Below, piece by piece: positions 1,887 through 61,660 of a stretch of DNA of 64,000 bases (within the stretch, counting starts at the first letter, position 1; every line of letters starts with the position of its first letter). Origin of the DNA: Candidatus Magasanikiibacteriota bacterium (GTDB lineage Bacteria; Patescibacteriota; Patescibacteriia; Magasanikbacterales; UBA922); assembly GCA_043825135.1 (NCBI GenBank), contig JBDRSF010000015.1, forward strand, positions 1,559 to 65,558, in the 5' to 3' direction. A program made the position numbers and the translations under genes. The notes beneath the pieces were generated by a model. The model searched no databases, was not told where the DNA came from, and was given only the letters and a program-made list of their open reading frames with translations.

Positions 1887-1962
1887 GCCAACTTAGCTCA
1901 GCTGGTAGAGCAACGGTTTTGTAAACCGTCGGTCCGGGGTTCGAGTCCCCGAGTTGGCTCCA
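1887..1962 (+). tRNA. tRNA-Thr(UGU), CCA encoded
   Basis: Cloverleaf by eye: acceptor GCCAACT/AGTTGGC, D-arm GCTC-AGCTGGTA-GAGC, anticodon stem ACGGT/ACCGT with loop TTTGTAA (anticodon TGT), T-arm CGGGG-TTCGAGT-CCCCG, 3' CCA. Confidence 0.8.
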
Positions 1963-2120
1963 CGAAAAATGGCGTTAGCCATTTTGAGTGGTCACGTGAT
2001 AACCGGTAGGTTATTTTACGTGACAAGGTTTGTGGTAATACAAAGGCGCCATCTCGTGGTGCCACCAGTATGAGGTGGTTCATTACAAAACAAAGTAAGT
2101 AGTTTACATGTACTGCTAGC

Positions 2121-2131
2121 TGTGATATAAT
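2121..2131 (+). promoter_or_regulatory. extended -10 promoter (TGTGATATAAT)
   Basis: TGnTATAAT-type element 7 nt upstream of the ATG at 2138. Confidence 0.45.
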
Positions 2132-2137
2132 ATATTC

Positions 2138-2752
2138 ATGGCAAAAGTAGATGAAAAAAATTTAGAAGTTATTAGTGGATTATATAAATTAGGATTGAGT
2201 ATTAGAGAGATAGCTTGTAAATATAGCGTTTCAGTCGATGCGATGTTTTATTTTTTCCGTAAGCATAAAATAAAAAGAAGAACCGCTAAAGAAAGTAATA
2301 AATTTTTGTTTGAGAGGAAAAAAGCTTCTTTTTATATAAAGAAAAAACTAAGCATTAAAGAAGAGAGTCTAAAAACAGCTGGTATAATGTTATACTGGGC
2401 TGAAGGTTCTAAATGGGATGGTGAGAAAATTGTTGATTTTGCGAATAGTGATTCGGACATGATAAAGACTTTTTTAGTTTTTCTTAGAGAGATATGTGGT
2501 GTTGACGAGAGTAAATTGCGAGTTTATCTGTATTGTTTTTCCAATCAGGATGTGGATAGATTAAAAAAGTTTTGGTCGAAAGAGACCGATATAAATTTGA
2601 ATCAATTTACAAAACCGTATATAAAAAAAGATTATAATTTGTCCAAAACAAGTAAAATGAAGCACGGTCTTATTCACATAAGATATAATGATAAAAAATT
2701 ACTACAACAAATTAGGAATTGGATTGAAGAATATAAAAATAAGTATAATTAA
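2138..2752 (+). CDS. HTH-domain protein with degenerate LAGLIDADG-like homing-endonuclease region (free-standing)
   Basis: N-terminal helix-turn-helix (LGLSIREIACKYSVS). Central IMLYWAEGSKWDGE resembles a degenerate LAGLIDADG motif. Basic, Lys-rich. Lies between tRNA-Thr and the intron-containing tRNA-Tyr. Confidence 0.35.
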   Translation: MAKVDEKNLEVISGLYKLGLSIREIACKYSVSVDAMFYFFRKHKIKRRTAKESNKFLFERKKASFYIKKKLSIKEESLKTAGIMLYWAEGSKWDGEKIVDFANSDSDMIKTFLVFLREICGVDESKLRVYLYCFSNQDVDRLKKFWSKETDINLNQFTKPYIKKDYNLSKTSKMKHGLIHIRYNDKKLLQQIRNWIEEYKNKYN

Positions 2753-3049
2753 GGGTGGGTTCCCGAGCGGTCAAAGGGGACAGACTGTAAGTTAAATTGC
2801 AGCCCTTAGAGGAAACTCTAAGGTGAACTCTCTGGGATAACGGTGAAAGCTAAGTTTGCTAATTAGTAGATATGCTAATACCGTGGGAACCCTGACATAA
2901 GTCGGGGAGCGCCGTAGAGACTAGATACCAGAGTACCTAAATTTATTTTATAAATAAGGTAAAGATATAGTCCACACCAAAAGGAAACTTTTGGGTTAGT
3001 GAAATCTGTTGGCTCCGCCTTCGGAGGTTCGAATCCTCCCCCACCCACA
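2753..3049 (+). tRNA. tRNA-Tyr(GUA) interrupted by a group I intron in the anticodon loop
   Basis: Exon 1 GGGTGGGTTCCCGAGCGGTCAAAGGGGACAGACTGT is near-identical to E. coli tRNA-Tyr. Exon 2 AAATCTGTTGG-CTCCGCCTTCGGAG (long variable arm)-GTTCGAATCCTCC-CCCACCC-A. Spliced loop is CUGUAAA. Acceptor GGGTGGG/CCCACCC. Confidence 0.75.
2789..3001 (+). ncRNA. group I intron (~213 nt) within tRNA-Tyr anticodon loop
   Basis: Contains the canonical group I S element AAGATATAGTCC (2961-2972) and P7-type GTAGAGACTAGA (compare the Azoarcus tRNA-Ile intron). 5' exon ends in U. Intron ends in G (omega-G). P-like AAATTGCAGCCC near the 5' end. No ORF inside. Confidence 0.7.
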
Positions 3050-3106
3050 AAAAAACTAATCAATAAAAATGATTAGTTTTTTGTTTTATTAAAAAATAAG
3101 CATTAG

Positions 3107-3227
3107 ACCAGCGGTCAAAGGGGACAGACTGCCCCGCCTGAAAGGACGGGGTCCCGTCCAGGCAGAGCCTGGCGGGATAAATCTGTTGGCTCCGTCTTCG
3201 GAGGTTCGAATCCTCCCCTGCCCGCCA
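3107..3227 (+). pseudogene. degenerate second tRNA-Tyr-like copy with a 46-nt structured insertion in the anticodon loop and mismatched acceptor strands
   Basis: CCAGCGGTCAAAGGGGACAGACTG, a 46-nt insert of two hairpins (CCCCG..CGGGG; TCCCG-CCAGGC..GCCTGG-CGGGA), then TAAATCTGTTGGCTCCGTCTTCGGAGGTTCGAATCCTCC-CCTGCCCG-CCA. D-arm, anticodon stem, variable arm and T-arm match the upstream tRNA-Tyr. The 5' acceptor strand is not complementary to the 3' end. Confidence 0.4.
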
Positions 3228-3267
3228 ATTTGGTAAATTAGTAATTTTGTTTATTATTTTATTGGTT

Positions 3268-3297
3268 AAAAACGGCTTTGACGCCGTTTTTTTGTTT
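3268..3297 (+). terminator. rho-independent terminator
   Basis: AAAAACGGC-TTTGAC-GCCGTTTTTTTGTTTTTTT hairpin plus T-tract after the tRNA cluster. Confidence 0.6.
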
Positions 3298-3361
3298 TTT
3301 TATTATTTTTATATTATACTAAAATTATCTAATCTTTTAGTAATTCATTATATTAACCCTC

Positions 3362-3412
3362 CGAAAGATCCCTCGTCGCTCTTCGCTACGCTCGGACTCA
3401 CTCGGGATTGCG
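3362..3412. repeat. family C short palindromic element (GAAAGATCCCTCGTCG...CTCGGGATT), copy 1 of 3, immediately upstream of mutM
   Basis: The same ~55-nt element with conserved ends recurs at 45805-45861 (before metK) and 61593-61647 (before dnaK), each ending 10-14 nt before the start codon. Confidence 0.7.
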
Positions 3413-3421
3413 ATTGAAAAT

Positions 3422-4279
3422 ATGCCAGAACTTCCAGAAGTAGAGACAATCAGACAAGATTTGAAAAAGAAAATAGTGAATAAGAAAATCACTAATGTTT
3501 TGATCACAACAAAAGCCAGAACTAATCTATCCCGAAATAAATTTGCCAGTGAGTTGAAAGGTGAGACTGTAAAAGATGTTGATCGTGTTGGTAAATTGTT
3601 GATTTTTGTTTTACCTGATGAAAAGTATTTACTAATCCACTTAAAAATGACAGGTCAGTTAATCTATCAAAAAGGCAAAAAAATTATACCTGGTGGACAT
3701 CATGATTTATCTACTGTTAGTGATTTACCAAATAAATTTACTAGAATCACTTTTGAATTTTCAGATGGCGGAAGATTATTTTTTAACGACATGCGTCGGT
3801 TTGGTTATTTAAAAATTGTAGACAGTAAAGAGCTGGAGAAAGTTAAGTCAAAATTCGGCATAGAACCATTAGCAAAAGATTTTACAATAGATAATTTTAA
3901 AAAAGCTTTGCAGGGAAGAAAAACTAATATTAAAGCATTGCTCTTAAATCAGCAAATATTTGCCGGAATTGGTAATATTTATGCTGATGAGGCTTGTTTT
4001 GATGCGGGAATAAGACCCGATACACAAGTTAGTGAGTTATCAAGTGTACAGGTAAATAAGTTATACAAGTCAGTTCAAAAAATAATTAAAAAAGCGATTG
4101 AGATGCGGGGGACCACTTTTAATAATTATAGAGATAGCGATGGTAATCAAGGTAATTTTGTTCAACATCTTAAAGTTTATGGCCGAGCCGGGTTGAAATG
4201 TAAGCGGTGTTCAGGTATAATAGAGAAGACTAGGGTTGCAGGGCGGGGGACACATCATTGTTCGAAATGTCAAAAATAA
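3422..4279 (+). CDS. mutM: formamidopyrimidine-DNA glycosylase
   Basis: 285 aa; N-terminal MPELPEVE (catalytic Pro2/Glu3), H2TH region, C-terminal zinc finger CKRCSG...HHCSKC. Confidence 0.9.
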   Translation: MPELPEVETIRQDLKKKIVNKKITNVLITTKARTNLSRNKFASELKGETVKDVDRVGKLLIFVLPDEKYLLIHLKMTGQLIYQKGKKIIPGGHHDLSTVSDLPNKFTRITFEFSDGGRLFFNDMRRFGYLKIVDSKELEKVKSKFGIEPLAKDFTIDNFKKALQGRKTNIKALLLNQQIFAGIGNIYADEACFDAGIRPDTQVSELSSVQVNKLYKSVQKIIKKAIEMRGTTFNNYRDSDGNQGNFVQHLKVYGRAGLKCKRCSGIIEKTRVAGRGTHHCSKCQK

Positions 4280-7183: not shown

Positions 7184-8428
7184 ATGATAAATACTTACGA
7201 TCTAATAGTAATTGGCGGTGGCCCAGCTGGAATAATGGCCGCTGGGATAGCAGGCTCAAGAGGTTTGCGAGTTTTATTGTTGGAAAAAAATAAAGATCTT
7301 GGCAAGAAAATTTTGATTACAGGCAAAGGCAGGTGCAATGTCACTCAAGCAGAGTTTAATTTACGTAAATTAGTTGAAACTTATGGTAAAGATGGAAAAT
7401 TTTTGTTTTCCTCTTTTCATCAATTTGGACCACGGGAAATAATGGATTTTTTTGAAAGCCGTGATGTTGAGTTAAAAATTGAGAGAGGTGGACGCGTATT
7501 TCCAGTTAGTGACAATGCTCGTGATGTGGTGAGTGCTTTGAAAAAGTTTTTAAAAGAAAGCAAAGTTGAAATTATGTATAATGCTAGTGTTAAGGGTTTT
7601 GATCATGAGGATGGCGAAATAAAATCAGTAAAACTTGCCGGTAACAAGAAAATAAAAACAAAAAATTTATTAATTGCCACCGGAGGATTATCTTATCCAG
7701 TAACTGGATCAACTGGTGATGGTTTTAAATGGGCCAAAGATTTTGGTCATACTATTGTGGACACAGATCCGGCTTTGGTTCCTTTAAAAATAAAAGAATC
7801 TTGGACAAAGAAATTACAAGGATTAACAATGAAAAATGTAAGTCTAACCGCCTGGCAAGGCAAGAAAAAAATTACTAGCCGACAGGGTGATATGTTGTTT
7901 ACTCATTTTGGTATTAGTGGTCCAATAGTTCTTGATATGAGTAAAGAAATTATTTCAGCAGAGAAAAAAGGGCAGGTTGAATTATCTTTAAATTTAAAAC
8001 CAGCTTTATCGCGCGAGCAGTTGGATGATAGGATCCAAAGAGATTTTAAAAAATATAATAACAAAGTTTTCAAAAATGCTTTATCAGATCTAGTTGCCAA
8101 AAAAATGATTCCAATAATAATTGAGCAGTCAGGAATTGATCCAGAAGAGAAAGTTAATAGTATTACTAAGGCAGAGCGTTTAAAATTTCTTGAGTTATTA
8201 CAGAATGTAAAAATGACAGTGACAGGCAATACCGGATATATTCAAGCCATAGTAACGAGCGGGGGAGTAAGTTTAAAAGAAATTGATCCCAAAACCATGC
8301 GATCTAAAATAATACCAAATTTATATTTCGCTGGTGAAGTACTAGATATTGACGGCCCGACCGGGGGTTATAATTTACAAGTGGCGTGGGGGACAGGATA
8401 CACTGTGGGGGAGTCTGTGGAGTGGTGA
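7184..8428 (+). CDS. HI0933/YhiN(BaiN)-family FAD-dependent flavoprotein
   Basis: YDLIVIGGGPAG dinucleotide-binding motif, TGKGRCNVTQ and GFDHEDGEIKSVKL signatures of the HI0933-like family; start overlaps the end of the previous ORF. Confidence 0.8.
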   Translation: MINTYDLIVIGGGPAGIMAAGIAGSRGLRVLLLEKNKDLGKKILITGKGRCNVTQAEFNLRKLVETYGKDGKFLFSSFHQFGPREIMDFFESRDVELKIERGGRVFPVSDNARDVVSALKKFLKESKVEIMYNASVKGFDHEDGEIKSVKLAGNKKIKTKNLLIATGGLSYPVTGSTGDGFKWAKDFGHTIVDTDPALVPLKIKESWTKKLQGLTMKNVSLTAWQGKKKITSRQGDMLFTHFGISGPIVLDMSKEIISAEKKGQVELSLNLKPALSREQLDDRIQRDFKKYNNKVFKNALSDLVAKKMIPIIIEQSGIDPEEKVNSITKAERLKFLELLQNVKMTVTGNTGYIQAIVTSGGVSLKEIDPKTMRSKIIPNLYFAGEVLDIDGPTGGYNLQVAWGTGYTVGESVEW

Positions 8429-8433
8429 TAGCC

Positions 8434-8637
8434 GTGTCATTGCGAGGAGTGAGAATACGGAGCCTGTCCTGAACGAAGTGAGAGGAACGTGGCAATCCCA
8501 TTCATAGTATTAATAATTATGATTATATAATGTAAAAAAGATAACCCTAATTTGGAAGATTTATGAGAAAGGTTTTGAGCGTTGATGTTTGGGATTGCTT
8601 CGTCAGTCGATGCGAATCAACCTCCTCGCAATGACAC
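8434..8637. repeat. family A MITE-like element (TIR GTGTCATTGCGAGG / CCTCGCAATGACAC; internal GGGATTGCTTCG...GATGCGAATC)
   Basis: Terminal inverted repeats seen directly; related copies at 9259-9353 and 60265-60381. Confidence 0.7.
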
Positions 8638-9258: not shown

Positions 9259-9353
9259 GTGTCATTGCGAGCGTAGCGAAGCAATCCCATGCTTTGACGC
9301 TTTAAAGATTGGGATTGCTTCGCCCCGATGCGAATCGGTGCTCGCAATGACAC
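9259..9353. repeat. family A MITE-like element (compact copy)
   Basis: GTGTCATTGCGAGCGTAGCGAAGCAATCCC...GGGATTGCTTCGCCCCGATGCGAATCGGTGCTCGCAATGACAC. Confidence 0.7.
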
Positions 9354-18045: not shown

Positions 18046-18072
18046 GGGATCCCGCCCAAAGGCGGGATAGTT
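18046..18072 (+). terminator. hairpin CCCGCCCAAAGGCGGG (family F) after ygjP-like gene
   Basis: GGGATCCCGCCCAAAGGCGGGATAGTTTTAT; related hairpins at 22126-22150 and 57150-57195. Confidence 0.5.
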
Positions 18073-18927: not shown

Positions 18928-19096
18928 GACCTCCCCTTGCTAAGGGGAGGAACACACGAGTTCGCCGTAGCTTTAGCGAAGGTGGACGAAGTGGGGTGGG
19001 GTCGGTTCGCGTAAATGCGATATTAAATATCCACAGACGAGACCCCCTAGCCCCTGATGCGAATCGGGGTGCATTCCCCCTTGGTAAGGGGGAACT
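18928..19096. repeat. family D MITE-like element, 'empty' copy (GACCTCCCCTTGCTAAGGGGAGGAACAC ... GATGCGAATCGGGGTGCATTCCCCCTTGGTAAGGGGGAAC)
   Basis: Same terminal hairpins flank the DUF559 gene at 33266-33745; internal GCTTTAGCGA and CCCCCTAGCC blocks shared with other families. Confidence 0.65.
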
Positions 19097-33265: not shown

Positions 33266-33745
33266 GACCTCCCCTTACGAAGGGGAGGAACACCTGATTC
33301 GCATCAGGGGGAGGGGTTTTTCTATGGAAAAAATATTTAATCAGTCTAAGCACAAAGATCTAAGAAAGATATTGAGAGAAGATTGTACTAAAAGTGAAGC
33401 GGTGTTGTGGAAATATTTAAAAGGAAAACAAATGGGATATAGATTCCGTCGTCAACACGGTATAGGTAGATATATAGTAGATTTTTATTGTCCGAAATTA
33501 AAGCTGATTATAGAAGTGGATGGTTATACGCATATAGATCATGATCAATATATATACGATATGGAGAGAGAAAATTATTTGCGTAGTTTAGGTCTGGTGG
33601 TTAAGAGATATACAGGTGAACAGATTTTTAAACATATTAGGGAAGTCTATCTTGATTTGCAGAATATTTGTGAAGAGTTGAGTAAGGGTTAATGCAAAAA
33701 CCCCCTAGCCACTTCGTGTGCATTCCCCCTTGAAAAGGGGGAACC
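33266..33745. mobile_element. family D MITE-like element carrying a DUF559 endonuclease gene
   Basis: Left end GACCTCCCCTTACGAAGGGGAGGAACAC-CTGATTCGCATCAGGGGG; right end CCCCCTAGCC...GCATTCCCCCTTGAAAAGGGGGAACC; same ends as the cargo-less element at 18928-19096. Confidence 0.55.
33324..33692 (+). CDS. DUF559 (Vsr/MutH-like) endonuclease-domain protein
   Basis: RFRRQHGIGRYIVDFYCPKLKLIIEVDGYTH...RENYLRSLGLVVKRY matches the DUF559 signature; start at ATG after the terminal repeat. Confidence 0.7.
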   Translation: MEKIFNQSKHKDLRKILREDCTKSEAVLWKYLKGKQMGYRFRRQHGIGRYIVDFYCPKLKLIIEVDGYTHIDHDQYIYDMERENYLRSLGLVVKRYTGEQIFKHIREVYLDLQNICEELSKG

Positions 33746-45740: not shown

Positions 45741-45804
45741 ATATTAATTTACTAGAAACAACTCAGTAGTCCTGCGACTACAATTACTAAATTTTAATTT
45801 TTAA

Positions 45805-45861
45805 GAAAGATCCCTCGTCGTCCAGATTTTTTGCGAAAAAAATCTTTCCTCGCTCGGGATT
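45805..45861. repeat. family C element, copy 2, immediately upstream of metK
   Basis: GAAAGATCCCTCGTCG-TCCAGATTTTTTGCGAAAAAAATCTTTCC-TCGCTCGGGATT, ends 12 nt before the ATG. Confidence 0.7.
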
Positions 45862-45872
45862 AACCAAACCAT

Positions 45873-61531: not shown

Positions 61532-61592
61532 AATAATATAATGGCGTAACAATTAAACCAATAAACTAATTAACTAATAAACATTAACTTAA

Positions 61593-61647
61593 GAAAGATC
61601 CCTCGTCGTTCACCTGCGCTCACGCTTGGTGACCTCGCTCGGGATTA
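61593..61647. repeat. family C element, copy 3, immediately upstream of dnaK
   Basis: GAAAGATCCCTCGTCG-TTCACCTGCGCTCACGCTTGGTGACCTCG-CTCGGGATT ends 13 nt before the ATG. Confidence 0.7.
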
Positions 61648-61660
61648 ACGAAAAAATTCT

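What the first reader, a model, noticed from the sequence alone, without database searches (positions are those of the whole stretch)
3107..3227. Second tRNA-Tyr-like gene with a 46-nt hairpin insert at the same anticodon-loop site and no complementary 5' acceptor strand
The D-arm, anticodon stem, variable arm and T-arm are near-identical to the upstream tRNA-Tyr. The anticodon loop CUG^UAAA is interrupted by a 46-nt insert forming two clean hairpins. The 3' acceptor strand CCTGCCCG-CCA has no matching 5' strand (the 5' side reads GCATTAGA). It could be a decayed intron remnant or pseudogene, or a non-canonical processed tRNA.
Basis: seen in the sequence. Interest (0 to 1): 0.55.

Follow-up and report, generated by a model that had tools for sequence, protein, structure and literature searches.

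The report
Broken leftover of resident tRNA-Tyr gene
This is the dead, 5'-truncated remnant of the genome's original tRNA-Tyr gene, pushed aside when a small mobile cassette (a homing-endonuclease-like gene plus its own intron-containing tRNA-Tyr) landed in front of it; it also carries an unexplained 46-base GC-rich double hairpin in its anticodon loop.

Summary
Positions 3110-3227 match a tRNA-Tyr(GTA) from D-loop nucleotide 14 to CCA. A 46-nt, 74% GC double hairpin (3132-3177) interrupts the anticodon loop, and there is no 5' acceptor strand. ARAGORN and Rfam do not call it a tRNA.

It is not a decayed copy of the upstream gene. It is the original resident gene. Five related Patescibacteria loci with the same TIM-TPR-tRNA-Thr-tRNA-Tyr-fpg synteny carry an intact, uninterrupted tRNA-Tyr with the same acceptor (GGGCAGG/CCTGCCC), trailer and terminator. 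With the insert removed, the relic is 71/72 identical to the nearest one.

About 1.15 kb (1963-3109) has replaced the spacer and the first 13 nt of the resident gene. This block carries a promoter, a 204-aa HTH + LAGLIDADG-fold ORF, a tRNA-Tyr with a group I intron at 35/36, and a terminator. The ORF abuts a tRNA-Tyr in all 10 lineages examined, and similar 3' relics lie downstream in two of them.

The 46-nt insert sits at 34/35, one base from the intron site. It resembles no intron and has no copy elsewhere, so its origin is unresolved. It may be a GC-rich hairpin insertion, possibly a target-site-disrupting scar.

Verdict: a tRNA pseudogene that marks a recent cassette invasion. Moderate interest.

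The parts
1887..1962 (+). tRNA-Thr(TGT). Conserved left neighbour and left boundary of the replaced segment.
   Evidence: ARAGORN and Rfam. The same gene precedes tRNA-Tyr in L001, L002, L004, L005, L118, L146 and L150.
1963..2137 (+). Left part of the incoming block. It holds hairpin-rich sequence of unknown role and a promoter-like site at 2103-2131 (TTTACA-17-TATAAT, with TG).
   Evidence: It replaces the ~70-nt thrU-tyrU spacer conserved in L001/L002/L004. Promoter scan 11/12. A similar TTTAC(A/T)...TATAAT sits in front of the ORF in L005, L006 and L008.
2138..2752 (+). ORF204: a 204-aa protein with an N-terminal HTH and a C-terminal single LAGLIDADG-fold domain (motif LYWAEGS; W87, E89 and G90 invariant). 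Putative free-standing homing endonuclease.
2753..3048 (+). Functional-looking tRNA-Tyr(GTA) number 1. Exons are 2753-2788 and 3002-3048; acceptor is GGGTGGG/CCCACCC; no CCA is encoded. This is the incoming copy.
   Evidence: ARAGORN -i gives an 83-nt cloverleaf. Its acceptor differs from all five resident orthologues by a compensated CA->TG pair change.
2789..3001 (+). 213-nt group I intron at tRNA position 35/36.
   Evidence: Rfam RF00028, 70.4 bits, E = 1e-17, full length. P1 shows the U.G pair at the splice site and the intron ends in G. The same site and class are described for Patescibacteria tRNAs in PMC13011429.
3050..3089 (+). AT-rich hairpin followed by a T-run: the cassette's own terminator-like element.
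   Evidence: Read directly from the sequence. Equivalent hairpin-plus-T elements follow the cassette tRNA in L005, L006, L150 and L154. It is not called by the scan because it has fewer than 3 G-C pairs.
3110..3131 (+). Relic of the resident tRNA-Tyr, 5' piece: D-loop, 3' D-stem strand, 5' anticodon-stem strand and C32-U33-G34 (tRNA nucleotides 14-35 of the 85-nt gene).
   Evidence: Alignments A1 and A3. Homology to L001 starts at its nucleotide 14.
3132..3177 (+). 46-nt GC-rich double-hairpin insertion between G34 and U35. Hairpin 1 is 3132-3151 and hairpin 2 is 3152-3177. Both stems are of the type (C/T)CCCG(C/T)C ... G(A/G)CGGG(G/A).
   Evidence: It is a clean gap in four orthologues. Fold z = -4.4. 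It is unique in the window at up to 3 mismatches. No informative matches elsewhere.
3178..3227 (+). Relic of the resident tRNA-Tyr, 3' piece: U35-A36, 3' anticodon stem, variable arm, T-arm, 3' acceptor strand CCTGCCC, discriminator G (A in all orthologues) and CCA.
   Evidence: With the 5' piece it is 71/72 identical to L001 nucleotides 14-85. See also alignment A3.
3228..3301 (+). Native trailer and intrinsic terminator of the resident tRNA-Tyr (stem 3268-3291, then a T-run).
   Evidence: Terminator scan. It aligns with L001, L002 and L004 (AAACGGCTTTGACGCCGTTTTTT).

Best explanation
Positions 3110-3227 are the non-functional 3' remnant of the genome's original (resident) tRNA-Tyr(GTA) gene.

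**Shown**
- In related Patescibacteria the locus reads TIM - TPR protein - tRNA-Thr(TGT) - 70-nt spacer - intact tRNA-Tyr - terminator - fpg.
- In this genome the spacer and the first 13 nt of that tRNA-Tyr have been replaced by a self-contained ~1.15-kb unit (1963-3109).
- The unit carries a promoter, a 204-aa HTH + LAGLIDADG-fold ORF, a complete tRNA-Tyr with a group I intron at 35/36, and a terminator.
- The incoming gene now supplies tRNA-Tyr.
- The leftover lacks the 5' acceptor strand and 5' D-stem strand. It has a 46-nt insertion in the anticodon and a mutated discriminator (A73->G).

**Inferred**
- Because of those three defects, the leftover should not be processable by RNase P, chargeable or able to decode. 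It sits between two terminators with no promoter of its own, so it is probably poorly transcribed.
- The ORF is a free-standing homing endonuclease that spreads together with its neighbouring tRNA-Tyr, using the conserved tRNA-Thr and tRNA-Tyr genes as homology arms, as phage T4 SegB does in its tRNA cluster. In this case the right-hand repair junction was illegitimate, so a relic was left instead of a clean replacement.
- The event is recent. The relic has 1 change in 72 nt against L001, whereas the adjoining unconstrained trailer differs at about 7 of 40 aligned positions.

**The 46-nt double hairpin: most likely, not shown**
It is most likely one of the small GC-rich hairpin insertions that pepper non-coding DNA in these AT-rich genomes. 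It was tolerated because the gene was already redundant or dead. It may have been favoured because it breaks the anticodon-loop sequence next to the intron insertion site, which is a plausible target of the endonuclease.
For: **Orthology of the relic**
- The syntenic loci L001, L002/L003, L004, L118 and L138 were found through Fpg homologues of 62-84% identity and through the T-arm scan.
- All carry an intact, uninterrupted tRNA-Tyr with acceptor GGGCAGG/CCTGCCC.
- L001, L002, L004 and L118 also share the downstream AAACGGCTTTG(A/G)CGC(C/T)GTTTTTT terminator, and L001 shares the TTTGGTAAATTA trailer. L138 has a different hairpin-plus-T element downstream.
- With the insert removed, the relic is 71/72 identical to L001 nucleotides 14-85, against 65/68 to the upstream gene.

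**Not a tRNA**
- ARAGORN with introns and Rfam do not call it.
- There is no 5' half in the window.

**The incoming unit**
- Promoter.
- W87, E89 and G90 are invariant in LYWAEGS.
- Group I intron at 70 bits.

**Evidence of mobility**
- The ORF is absent at this locus in the closest relatives, but it abuts a tRNA-Tyr in 10 of 10 lineages and in at least five different genomic contexts.
- 3' relics of tRNA-Tyr also lie downstream of the ORF-tRNA unit in L006 and L154.
- The adjacent tRNA-Tyr has the intron in 4 of 10 ORF-bearing lineages against 6 of 85 without the ORF (Fisher p = 0.01).

**Hairpin background**
- Perfect TCCC...GGGA hairpins of at least 7 bp occur 12 times in the window against 0.68 in shuffles.
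- GC-rich hairpin insertions are also present in tRNA-Thr relics of L001, L002 and L004.
- A further GC-rich insertion at 3358-3420 is absent from relatives.
Against: - The ORF also sits next to intron-less tRNA-Tyr genes, so an anticodon-loop target is not required by the data.
- The 46-nt insert has no second copy in the window, in about 150 fetched loci, in viral contigs or in phage records. Matches in species-representative genomes are at chance level in high-GC genomes. Its membership of a mobile family is therefore not demonstrated.
- The order of events (truncation, insertion, discriminator change) cannot be resolved.
- The window comes from a metagenome-assembled genome, and the tandem arrangement could not be checked against reads or an independent assembly.
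Confidence: 0.85

Rival explanations
1. It is a duplicated paralogue of the upstream tRNA-Tyr whose group I intron has decayed by internal deletion to a 46-nt stump.
For: The insert lies within one nucleotide of the intron site of the neighbouring gene. Group I introns at 35/36 are common in tRNA-Tyr of this clade: 9 examples among the fetched loci, and PMC13011429.
Against: - The relic is orthologous to the intron-less resident gene of five relatives, not to the upstream copy.
- The insert follows G34 rather than U and ends in A rather than G.
- It has no similarity to the neighbouring intron or to any fetched tRNA-Tyr intron.
- There is no Rfam group I signal over 3132-3177 at E <= 10.
Confidence: 0.04
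2. It is a functional non-canonical RNA. Either it is a split or trans-completed tRNA whose 5' half is encoded elsewhere and whose 46-nt insert is removed by a non-group-I pathway, or it is a tRNA-like structured RNA with a role of its own.
For: - CCA is retained.
- The body is almost unmutated (71/72).
- The insert is a very stable, well-formed double hairpin.
- The whole region folds better than shuffles (z = -2.4).
Against: - No 5' half (GGGCAGG followed by D-arm sequence) exists in 64 kb.
- No promoter lies between the two terminators.
- The discriminator A73, kept in all orthologues, is changed.
- There are zero short inserts in the same anticodon loop in the metagenome scan and among about 115 tRNA-Tyr genes.
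- No homologue of the insert was found, so there is no conservation or covariation to support a structure.
- An intact tRNA-Tyr is present 60 nt upstream.
- The high identity is explained by recent pseudogenisation.
Confidence: 0.03
3. It is an att-site duplicate: the displaced 3' part of a tRNA gene left by integrase-mediated insertion of a genomic island or prophage.
For: 5'-truncated tRNA fragments next to an intact copy are the classical signature of tRNA-targeting integrative elements. L002 and L070 show short 3'-end duplications of tRNA-Tyr flanking small inserts.
Against: - The inserted block is only ~1.15 kb and encodes no tyrosine or serine recombinase. Its only ORF is HTH + LAGLIDADG-fold.
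- The repeat is not an identical core: the acceptor differs at two paired positions.
- The block replaces sequence (the spacer and 13 nt) rather than simply inserting.
- The homology extends from the D-loop onward, which is not a typical anticodon-loop, T-loop or 3'-end crossover.
Confidence: 0.03
4. It is an assembly artefact: a chimeric join of two strain variants (with and without the cassette) through the shared 22-nt tRNA word.
For: The window derives from a metagenome-assembled genome. The relic begins exactly at a 22-nt stretch that is identical in both copies.
Against: - A join through the shared word would give a hybrid single gene, not a tandem arrangement with a terminator and unique sequence (TTATTAAAAAATAAGCATTAGACC) in front of the relic.
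- It would not create the 46-nt insert or the G73 change.
- Analogous cassette-plus-relic arrangements occur in independent assemblies (L006/L007 and L154/L155).
Confidence: 0.04

Closest known systems
Phage T4 SegB: a free-standing GIY-YIG homing endonuclease in the T4 tRNA gene cluster (Brok-Volchanskaya et al. 2008, PMC2330249)
   Same: - An endonuclease-type ORF sits between tRNA genes rather than inside an intron.
- It is present or absent among close relatives.
- The neighbouring tRNA genes travel with it.
- Conserved tRNA sequence provides both target and homology.
   Different: - Here the ORF has a LAGLIDADG fold with an HTH, not GIY-YIG.
- The host is a cellular Patescibacteria chromosome, not a phage.
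- No cleavage has been shown.
- The event left a truncated relic of the recipient gene.
Collaborative or trans homing of group I introns with free-standing endonucleases (cyanophage psbA F-CphI; T4 mobE/I-TevIII).
   Same: A free-standing endonuclease gene lies next to a gene whose group I intron interrupts the presumed target. In this data set the ORF and the 35/36 intron co-occur more often than expected (4/10 against 6/85).
   Different: The target of ORF204 is unknown. The ORF is also found next to intron-less tRNA-Tyr genes. The association test uses non-independent lineages.
Group I introns at position 35/36 in Patescibacteria tRNA genes (Nakagawa et al. 2026, PMC13011429)
   Same: The upstream tRNA-Tyr intron (2789-3001) is of this kind. 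That paper's detection table lists a group I intron-bearing tRNA in a Patescibacteria genome called Tyr(GUA) 35/36.
   Different: The paper reports that most such introns lack homing endonuclease genes. In the term searches made here it gave no hits for 'pseudogene' and no relevant ones for 'fragment' or 'remnant'. The 46-nt insert in the finding is not a group I intron.
tRNA gene fragments left by tRNA-targeting integrative elements (att duplications; Williams 2002, recalled)
   Same: A 5'-truncated tRNA copy lies next to an intact one and marks a DNA insertion event.
   Different: There is no integrase and no identical core repeat. The inserted block is a 1.15-kb endonuclease-tRNA unit.
Small GC-rich palindromic insertions in AT-rich genomes: yeast mitochondrial GC clusters (PMC4478555), double-hairpin elements and sponge mitochondrial repetitive hairpin elements (PMC2800124), bacterial REP/BIME and Rickettsia palindromic elements (recalled). 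The two papers were seen only as titles and abstracts in the search results.
   Same: - 40-50 nt and very GC-rich in an AT-rich genome.
- One or two hairpins.
- Present or absent between close relatives.
- Able to land inside RNA genes.
   Different: - No second copy of this sequence was found, so multi-copy family membership, the defining feature, is not shown.
- There is no target-site duplication.
- No such family has been described in Patescibacteria in the papers searched.

Membership tests
Functional bacterial tRNA gene | 7-bp acceptor stem formed by the 5' and 3' ends | tested here: not met
   The 3' strand CCTGCCC is present. The sequence 5' of the homology (GCATTAGACC) does not pair with it. 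No GGGCAGG in a tRNA context exists in the window.
Functional bacterial tRNA gene | 7-nt anticodon loop and recognition by tRNA covariance or heuristic models | tested here: not met
   The loop is interrupted by 46 nt. ARAGORN (default, and -i with relaxed -ps) and Rfam RF00005 do not call it.
Functional bacterial tRNA gene | Discriminator A73, as in all orthologous tRNA-Tyr genes | tested here: not met
   G at 3224. A in L001, L002, L004, L118 and L138.
Group I intron or remnant | Conserved catalytic core (P3-P9) detectable by RF00028 | tested here: not met
   No RF00028 match over 3132-3177 at E <= 10, whereas the neighbouring intron scores 70 bits. 46 nt is too short for a core.
Group I intron or remnant | 5' splice site after U (U.G in P1) and a 3'-terminal G | tested here: not met
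   The insert follows G34 and ends in A. It would fit only if an extra T35->C substitution is assumed, and it would then end in U.
Archaeal/eukaryal-type (bulge-helix-bulge) tRNA intron | BHB motif at the exon-intron junctions and a splicing endonuclease in the genome | tested here: inconclusive
   The predicted fold is two independent hairpins closed by the anticodon stem, and no two 3-nt bulges flank a 4-bp helix. Presence of an EndA-type enzyme cannot be assessed from 64 kb. The gene is truncated anyway.
Free-standing homing endonuclease cassette (T4 seg/mob-like) | ORF with an endonuclease fold located outside any intron | tested here: met
Free-standing homing endonuclease cassette (T4 seg/mob-like) | Presence/absence polymorphism at an otherwise syntenic locus, flanked by conserved sequence | tested here: met
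   Absent in L001, L002, L004, L118 and L138. Present in the window, L005 and L150 at the same TIM-TPR-tRNA-Thr locus. The flanks are tRNA-Thr and tRNA-Tyr.
Free-standing homing endonuclease cassette (T4 seg/mob-like) | Site-specific cleavage of the ORF-less allele, and resistance of the ORF-bearing allele | not testable with these tools
   This needs the purified protein and a cleavage assay. It is only circumstantial that both tRNA-Tyr copies here have the anticodon loop interrupted (intron at 35/36, insert at 34/35).
Integrase-mediated att duplication in a tRNA gene | Tyrosine or serine recombinase gene within the inserted element | tested here: not met
   The only ORF of at least 50 aa in 1963-3109 on the coding strand is ORF204, which has no recombinase domain.
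Multi-copy GC-rich palindromic elements (REP/BIME, mitochondrial GC clusters, double-hairpin elements) | Several sequence-related copies per genome | tested here: not met
   There is a single copy in 64 kb at up to 3 mismatches for the whole insert and for each hairpin. Only the 7-bp stem type TCCCGCC/GGCGGGA recurs, at 18050-18067. The rest of the genome was not available.
Multi-copy GC-rich palindromic elements (REP/BIME, mitochondrial GC clusters, double-hairpin elements) | Stable hairpin(s), GC-rich against an AT-rich background, insertion polymorphism between relatives | tested here: met
   z = -4.4 and 74% GC against about 35%. It is a clean indel relative to four orthologues.

The most novel reading that the evidence does not exclude
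The 46-nt double hairpin is not a random insertion but a selected 'immunity scar'. On this reading the LAGLIDADG-fold ORF204 cuts tRNA-Tyr DNA at the anticodon loop, which is the 35/36 intron insertion site. A genome that acquires the cassette can then only keep copies whose site is broken: by the group I intron in the incoming gene, and by a GC-rich hairpin insertion in the resident relic.

More broadly, Patescibacteria would harbour a family of tRNA-gene-targeting free-standing endonuclease cassettes. These would include ORF204 with tRNA-Tyr, paralogues with tRNA-Trp and tRNA-Thr(GGT), and GIY-YIG with tRNA-Thr(TGT). Such cassettes would turn over tRNA genes and leave relics that repeatedly carry GC-rich hairpin insertions, possibly a new class of small mobile or repair-generated hairpin elements.
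Probability: 0.2. Interest if true: 0.65.

Novelty: new member of a known kind. Interest (0 to 1): 0.4.

Why it matters
Taken alone, the feature is a tRNA pseudogene. Its value is as a dated footprint. It shows directly that the ORF-plus-tRNA-Tyr(intron) unit entered a Patescibacteria chromosome recently and displaced the resident gene.

- **Mobility.** The recent survey of tRNA introns in this phylum inferred limited mobility because most introns lack internal endonuclease genes (PMC13011429). An endonuclease-like gene sitting just outside the tRNA would change that inference. It would also help explain how 35/36 introns spread in these reduced genomes.
- **Annotation.** The relic should not be counted as a tRNA. 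The real tRNA-Tyr is missed by default tools because of its intron.
- **Open question.** GC-rich hairpin insertions recur in tRNA relics in this window and in three related loci, and this remains unexplained.

Tried and rejected
1. **5' half elsewhere in the window.** I searched for GGGCAGG and for the 5' D-arm sequence. Only unrelated coding-sequence hits came back.
2. **Alternative cloverleaf.** ARAGORN at -ps80 uses GGACAGA as the 5' acceptor strand. This gives 5 of 7 pairs, an 11-nt 'intron' and a huge variable region, and I rejected it as an artefact.
3. **Rfam at E <= 10 over 2600-3500.** Nothing relevant covers the relic. The best hits are a plastid 3' UTR model that matches the T-arm on the minus strand and tRNA-Sec at 16 bits.
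4. **Hairpin 2 in 185,579 species genomes.** There were 14 hits, all from taxa that are typically high-GC or from unclassified MAGs. The one inspected (L010) is about 65% GC, and the match lies in GC-rich sequence with no tRNA features around it. The count is about what my own composition estimate predicts by chance.
5. **JGI metagenomes for 20-50-nt inserts in the same anticodon loop.** Zero hits.
6. **Viral contigs and phage records.** Only the tRNA-Tyr 3' half matches phage tRNA-Tyr genes. The insert matches nothing.
7. **blastn-short of the insert and other GC-rich inserts against the window and all loci.** No shared family beyond 10-13-mers.
9. **Locating the window's own contig by exact Fpg look-up.** It is not on record, so the rest of the MAG could not be examined.
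Full report
**1. What is in the sequence**

- **5' match.** From 3110 to 3131 the sequence AGCGGTCAAAGGGGACAGACTG is identical at 22 of 22 positions to the upstream tRNA-Tyr.
- **3' match.** From 3178 onward, TAAATCTGT through the variable arm and T-arm is identical at 40 of 41 positions. It is followed by CCTGCCC-G-CCA.
- **Insert.** Between the two matches lie 46 nt (3132-3177) of 74% GC in a genome of 32-41% GC. They fold into two hairpins with MFE -30.5 kcal/mol and z = -4.4.
- **No partner strand.** The bases 5' of the match (GCATTAGACC) cannot pair with the 3' acceptor strand, and the 5' strand of the D-stem is missing as well.
- **Not called as a tRNA.** ARAGORN, with or without intron search, and Rfam do not recognise it.
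- **No 5' half.** No GGGCAGG followed by D-arm sequence exists elsewhere in the 64-kb window.

One correction is needed. The upstream gene's intron (2789-3001, Rfam RF00028 70.4 bits) is fixed at position 35/36 by the U.G pair in P1 and by its terminal G. The 46-nt insert lies at 34/35, so the two sites are adjacent rather than identical.

**2. The relic is the resident gene, not a copy of the upstream one**

Fpg (3422-4279) has homologues of 62-84% identity in related Patescibacteria. The window itself comes from a Candidatus Magasanikbacteria MAG.

The contigs encoding these homologues keep the order peptidase M16 - TIM - TPR protein - tRNA-Thr(TGT) - tRNA-Tyr(GTA) - fpg.

- In L001, L002/L003, L004, L118 and L138 the tRNA-Tyr is intact and uninterrupted, with acceptor GGGCAGG/CCTGCCC, discriminator A and, except in L002, an encoded CCA.
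- In L001, L002, L004 and L118 it is followed by the terminator AAACGGCTTTG(A/G)CGC(C/T)GTTTTTT that lies at 3268-3301 in the window. L001 also shares the TTTGGTAAATTA trailer. L138 has a different terminator-like element.
- In the alignment, the 46 nt are a clean gap in all four aligned relatives, and homology to the window begins at tRNA nucleotide 14.
- With the insert removed, the relic is 71/72 identical to L001 nucleotides 14-85. The only difference is the discriminator. Against the upstream gene the figure is 65/68.

The feature is therefore the orthologue of the resident tRNA-Tyr. The adjoining unconstrained trailer differs from L001 at about 7 of 40 aligned positions, including two 1-nt gaps. 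Since the relic itself shows only one change, its inactivation must be recent.

**3. What displaced it**

The 70-nt thrU-tyrU spacer of the relatives and the first 13 nt of the resident gene are replaced by about 1.15 kb (1963-3109). This block contains:

- hairpin-rich sequence of unknown role;
- a strong promoter-like site (TTTACA-17-TATAAT);
- a 204-aa ORF (2138-2752) whose stop codon abuts the next gene;
- a complete tRNA-Tyr(GTA) with a 213-nt group I intron;
- an AT-rich hairpin with a T-run.

The incoming tRNA differs from the resident type by a compensated change of two acceptor pairs (GGGTGGG/CCCACCC), and it lacks an encoded CCA.

The ORF has more than 1000 homologues of about 200 aa in Patescibacteria, and none carries a Pfam domain other than an N-terminal HTH.

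- An AlphaFold model built on 38 homologues is confident (pLDDT 95).
- Foldseek finds nothing.
- The first helix of that domain ends in LYWAEGS, with W87, E89 and G90 invariant. This is the position of the catalytic acidic residue in LAGLIDADG enzymes (established knowledge).

I read the ORF as a free-standing LAGLIDADG-type homing endonuclease, or a derivative of one.

**4. The ORF-tRNA-Tyr unit is a recurrent, mobile unit that leaves relics**

In all ten lineages examined the ORF lies within 10 nt of the 5' end of a tRNA-Tyr(GTA), or overlaps it in L150. The lineages are the window, L005, L006/7, L008/9, L055, L144/5, L146-149, L150-153, L154/5 and L156. Its own TTTAC(A/T)...TATAAT promoter is visible in those inspected, and a hairpin-plus-T terminator follows the tRNA in most.

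- **Contexts differ.** They include TIM-TPR-tRNA-Thr, EF-Ts/PSP1, ClpB, FUR/ZnuA, glycogen phosphorylase and L33.
- **It is missing from the closest relatives** of the window at this very locus.
- **3' fragments of a tRNA-Tyr also lie downstream of the unit** in L006 (3862-3895, followed by a second terminator) and in L154, where the fragment carries an 18-nt insertion.
- **Other 5'-truncated tRNA-Tyr relics** turned up in the metagenome scan (L070, L085, L134).

The window is thus one instance of a repeated process in which the unit lands on a resident tRNA-Tyr gene. The relic cannot revert to an intact gene, so the cassette-bearing state is derived.

Two further observations fit this picture.

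- The adjacent tRNA-Tyr carries the 35/36 intron in 4 of 10 ORF-bearing lineages, against 6 of 85 tRNA-Tyr genes without the ORF (Fisher p = 0.01). The lineages are not independent, so this is only suggestive.
- Paralogues of the ORF abut tRNA-Trp in L004 and lie just upstream of tRNA-Thr(GGT) in L055.

**5. The 46-nt insert**

It is unique in the window at up to 3 mismatches, both as a whole and for each hairpin. It has no relative in any fetched locus, in viral contigs or in phage records.

- A scan of species-representative genomes with hairpin 2 gave 14 hits, all from taxa that are typically high-GC or from unclassified MAGs. The one inspected (L010) is about 65% GC. The count is about what composition predicts by my own estimate.
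- A metagenome scan for any 20-50-nt insert in the same loop with the same flanks found none.
- None of about 115 related tRNA-Tyr genes has a short insert. All introns found are at least 203 nt.

It is therefore not a recognisable intron type, not a remnant of the neighbouring intron, and not a member of a demonstrable repeat family.

What can be said is limited.

- Both hairpins use the same stem type, (C/T)CCCG(C/T)C ... G(A/G)CGGG(G/A). This stem recurs at 18050-18067.
- Perfect TCCC...GGGA hairpins of at least 7 bp are 18-fold enriched in the window (12 against 0.68).
- Similar 42-61-nt hairpin insertions, 54-74% GC, interrupt 5' relics of tRNA-Thr next to GIY-YIG ORFs in L001 and L002, and next to the intact gene in L004. 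They sit at different positions and have different sequences.
- A further insertion at 3358-3420 is absent from relatives.

Small GC-rich hairpins are thus being inserted into non-coding DNA, including dead tRNA genes, in this clade.

**6. Mechanism**

*Shown:* replacement of the spacer and of the 5' end of the resident gene by a self-contained transcription unit; the three inactivating lesions in the relic; and the presence of an intact replacement gene.

*Inferred:*
- A donor arrangement thrU-ORF-tyrU(intron), as seen in L005 and L150, recombined into a thrU-tyrU recipient.
- The left junction was homologous, in or next to tRNA-Thr. The right junction was illegitimate, in the D-arm. The result was a relic instead of a clean conversion.
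- The process was probably started by a double-strand break made by the ORF's product, by analogy with T4 SegB. SegB recognises a tRNA T-arm motif and drives inheritance of itself and of the surrounding tRNA genes (PMC2330249).
- The relic lies between two terminators with no promoter.
- Without a 5' acceptor strand it should not be a substrate for RNase P or TyrRS (established tRNA biology).

*Speculative:* the hairpin insertion next to the intron insertion site may have been favoured because it destroys an endonuclease target in the retained copy.

**7. Comparison with known systems, and novelty**

- The upstream intron belongs to the 35/36 class recently described in Patescibacteria (PMC13011429).
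- That paper found that most tRNA introns lack internal endonuclease genes and inferred limited mobility. In the term searches made here, it did not mention relics.
- The cassette works like phage free-standing homing endonuclease systems, but activity has not been tested.
- The insert resembles mitochondrial GC clusters and double-hairpin elements in form (PMC4478555, PMC2800124, seen as search results only). It fails the multi-copy criterion on the data available.
- The finding itself is an ordinary kind of object, a tRNA pseudogene left by a mobile-element insertion, in a lineage and with a partner element that appear not to have been described.

**8. Caveats**

- The window is from a MAG, and contiguity could not be checked against reads.
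- The order of truncation, insertion and point mutation is unknown.

Noticed in passing
window 2138-2752; L005 3001-3612; L006 3001-3615; L008 3001-3615; L144, L146, L150, L154, L156; L055 3926-4525 (minus strand): A Pfam-less ~204-aa protein family (HTH + LAGLIDADG-fold, more than 1000 members in Patescibacteria) lies within 10 nt of the 5' end of a tRNA-Tyr(GTA) gene, or overlaps it in L150, in all 10 lineages checked. It appears in several unrelated genomic contexts. It looks like a tRNA-gene-associated free-standing homing endonuclease family.
   Followed up: partly
L004 6992-7654 (next to tRNA-Trp 7640-7711); L055 456-1007 (minus strand, upstream of tRNA-Thr(GGT) 237-312): Paralogues of the same protein (31-38% identity) sit directly upstream of other tRNA genes. 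This suggests a wider superfamily, each branch tied to a particular tRNA gene.
   Followed up: no
L001 4328-4400 and 4422-4658; L002 4222-4345 and 4202-4585; L004 4553-4665: Related genomes carry 5' relics of tRNA-Thr(TGT) just upstream of the intact gene. They are interrupted by different hairpin inserts of 42-61 nt (54-74% GC) in the D-arm. In L001 and L002 a small GIY-YIG ORF separates the relic from the intact gene. This is the same pattern as the tRNA-Tyr relic, with a different endonuclease family.
   Followed up: partly
window 3361-3412, 45803-45865, 61591-61650: A repeat family with conserved ends (A/C)(A/C)GAAAGATCCCTCGTCG ... CTCGGGATT and a variable internal hairpin. The 3361 copy ends about 10 nt upstream of the fpg ATG and is absent from the orthologous fpg leader in relatives; the other two copies were only seen to be followed by an ATG within about 20 nt. 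It could be a mobile 5'-UTR element or a regulatory motif.
   Followed up: partly
window 8436-8637 and 9262-9290: Inverted repeats GTCATTGCGAGGAG ... CTCCTCGCAATGAC flank about 200 nt. A related GTCATTGCGAGCGTAGCGAAGCAATCCC hairpin lies at 9262. These are MITE-like elements in intergenic DNA.
   Followed up: no
window-wide, e.g. 18932-18948, 19075-19093, 33270-33286, 33724-33742, 39777-39793: Short perfect hairpins of the form TCCCC(C)TT-loop-AAGGGG(G)A are strongly enriched. There are 12 TCCC...GGGA hairpins of at least 7 bp against 0.68 in shuffles. They are probably terminators or a REP-like family.
   Followed up: partly
L002 4818-4920: A ~100-nt insert with long inverted repeats (CAGCCTTCGCTAAAGCTACGG ... 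CCATCGTAGCTTTAGCGAAG) lies directly after the tRNA-Tyr. It is flanked by a 17-nt duplication of the tRNA 3' end (AATCCTTCTCTGCCCAC). L070 shows a similar second 3' fragment 237 nt downstream of its tRNA-Tyr.
   Followed up: no
window 1963-2100: About 140 nt of hairpin-rich sequence lie between tRNA-Thr and the cassette promoter, for example GTCACGTGATAACCGGTAGGTTATTTTACGTGAC. It is absent from relatives and gives no Rfam match at gathering score. Its role is unknown.
   Followed up: no
window 3047-3049 versus 3224-3227: The incoming, presumably functional tRNA-Tyr has no encoded CCA (ACA), while the dead resident copy keeps CCA. The organism must therefore rely on a CCA-adding enzyme for its only working tRNA-Tyr.
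   Followed up: no
window 2753-3048: The only functional-looking tRNA-Tyr found in the window is missed by default ARAGORN and by Rfam at gathering score because of its 35/36 intron. Standard annotation would report no tRNA-Tyr here.
   Followed up: yes
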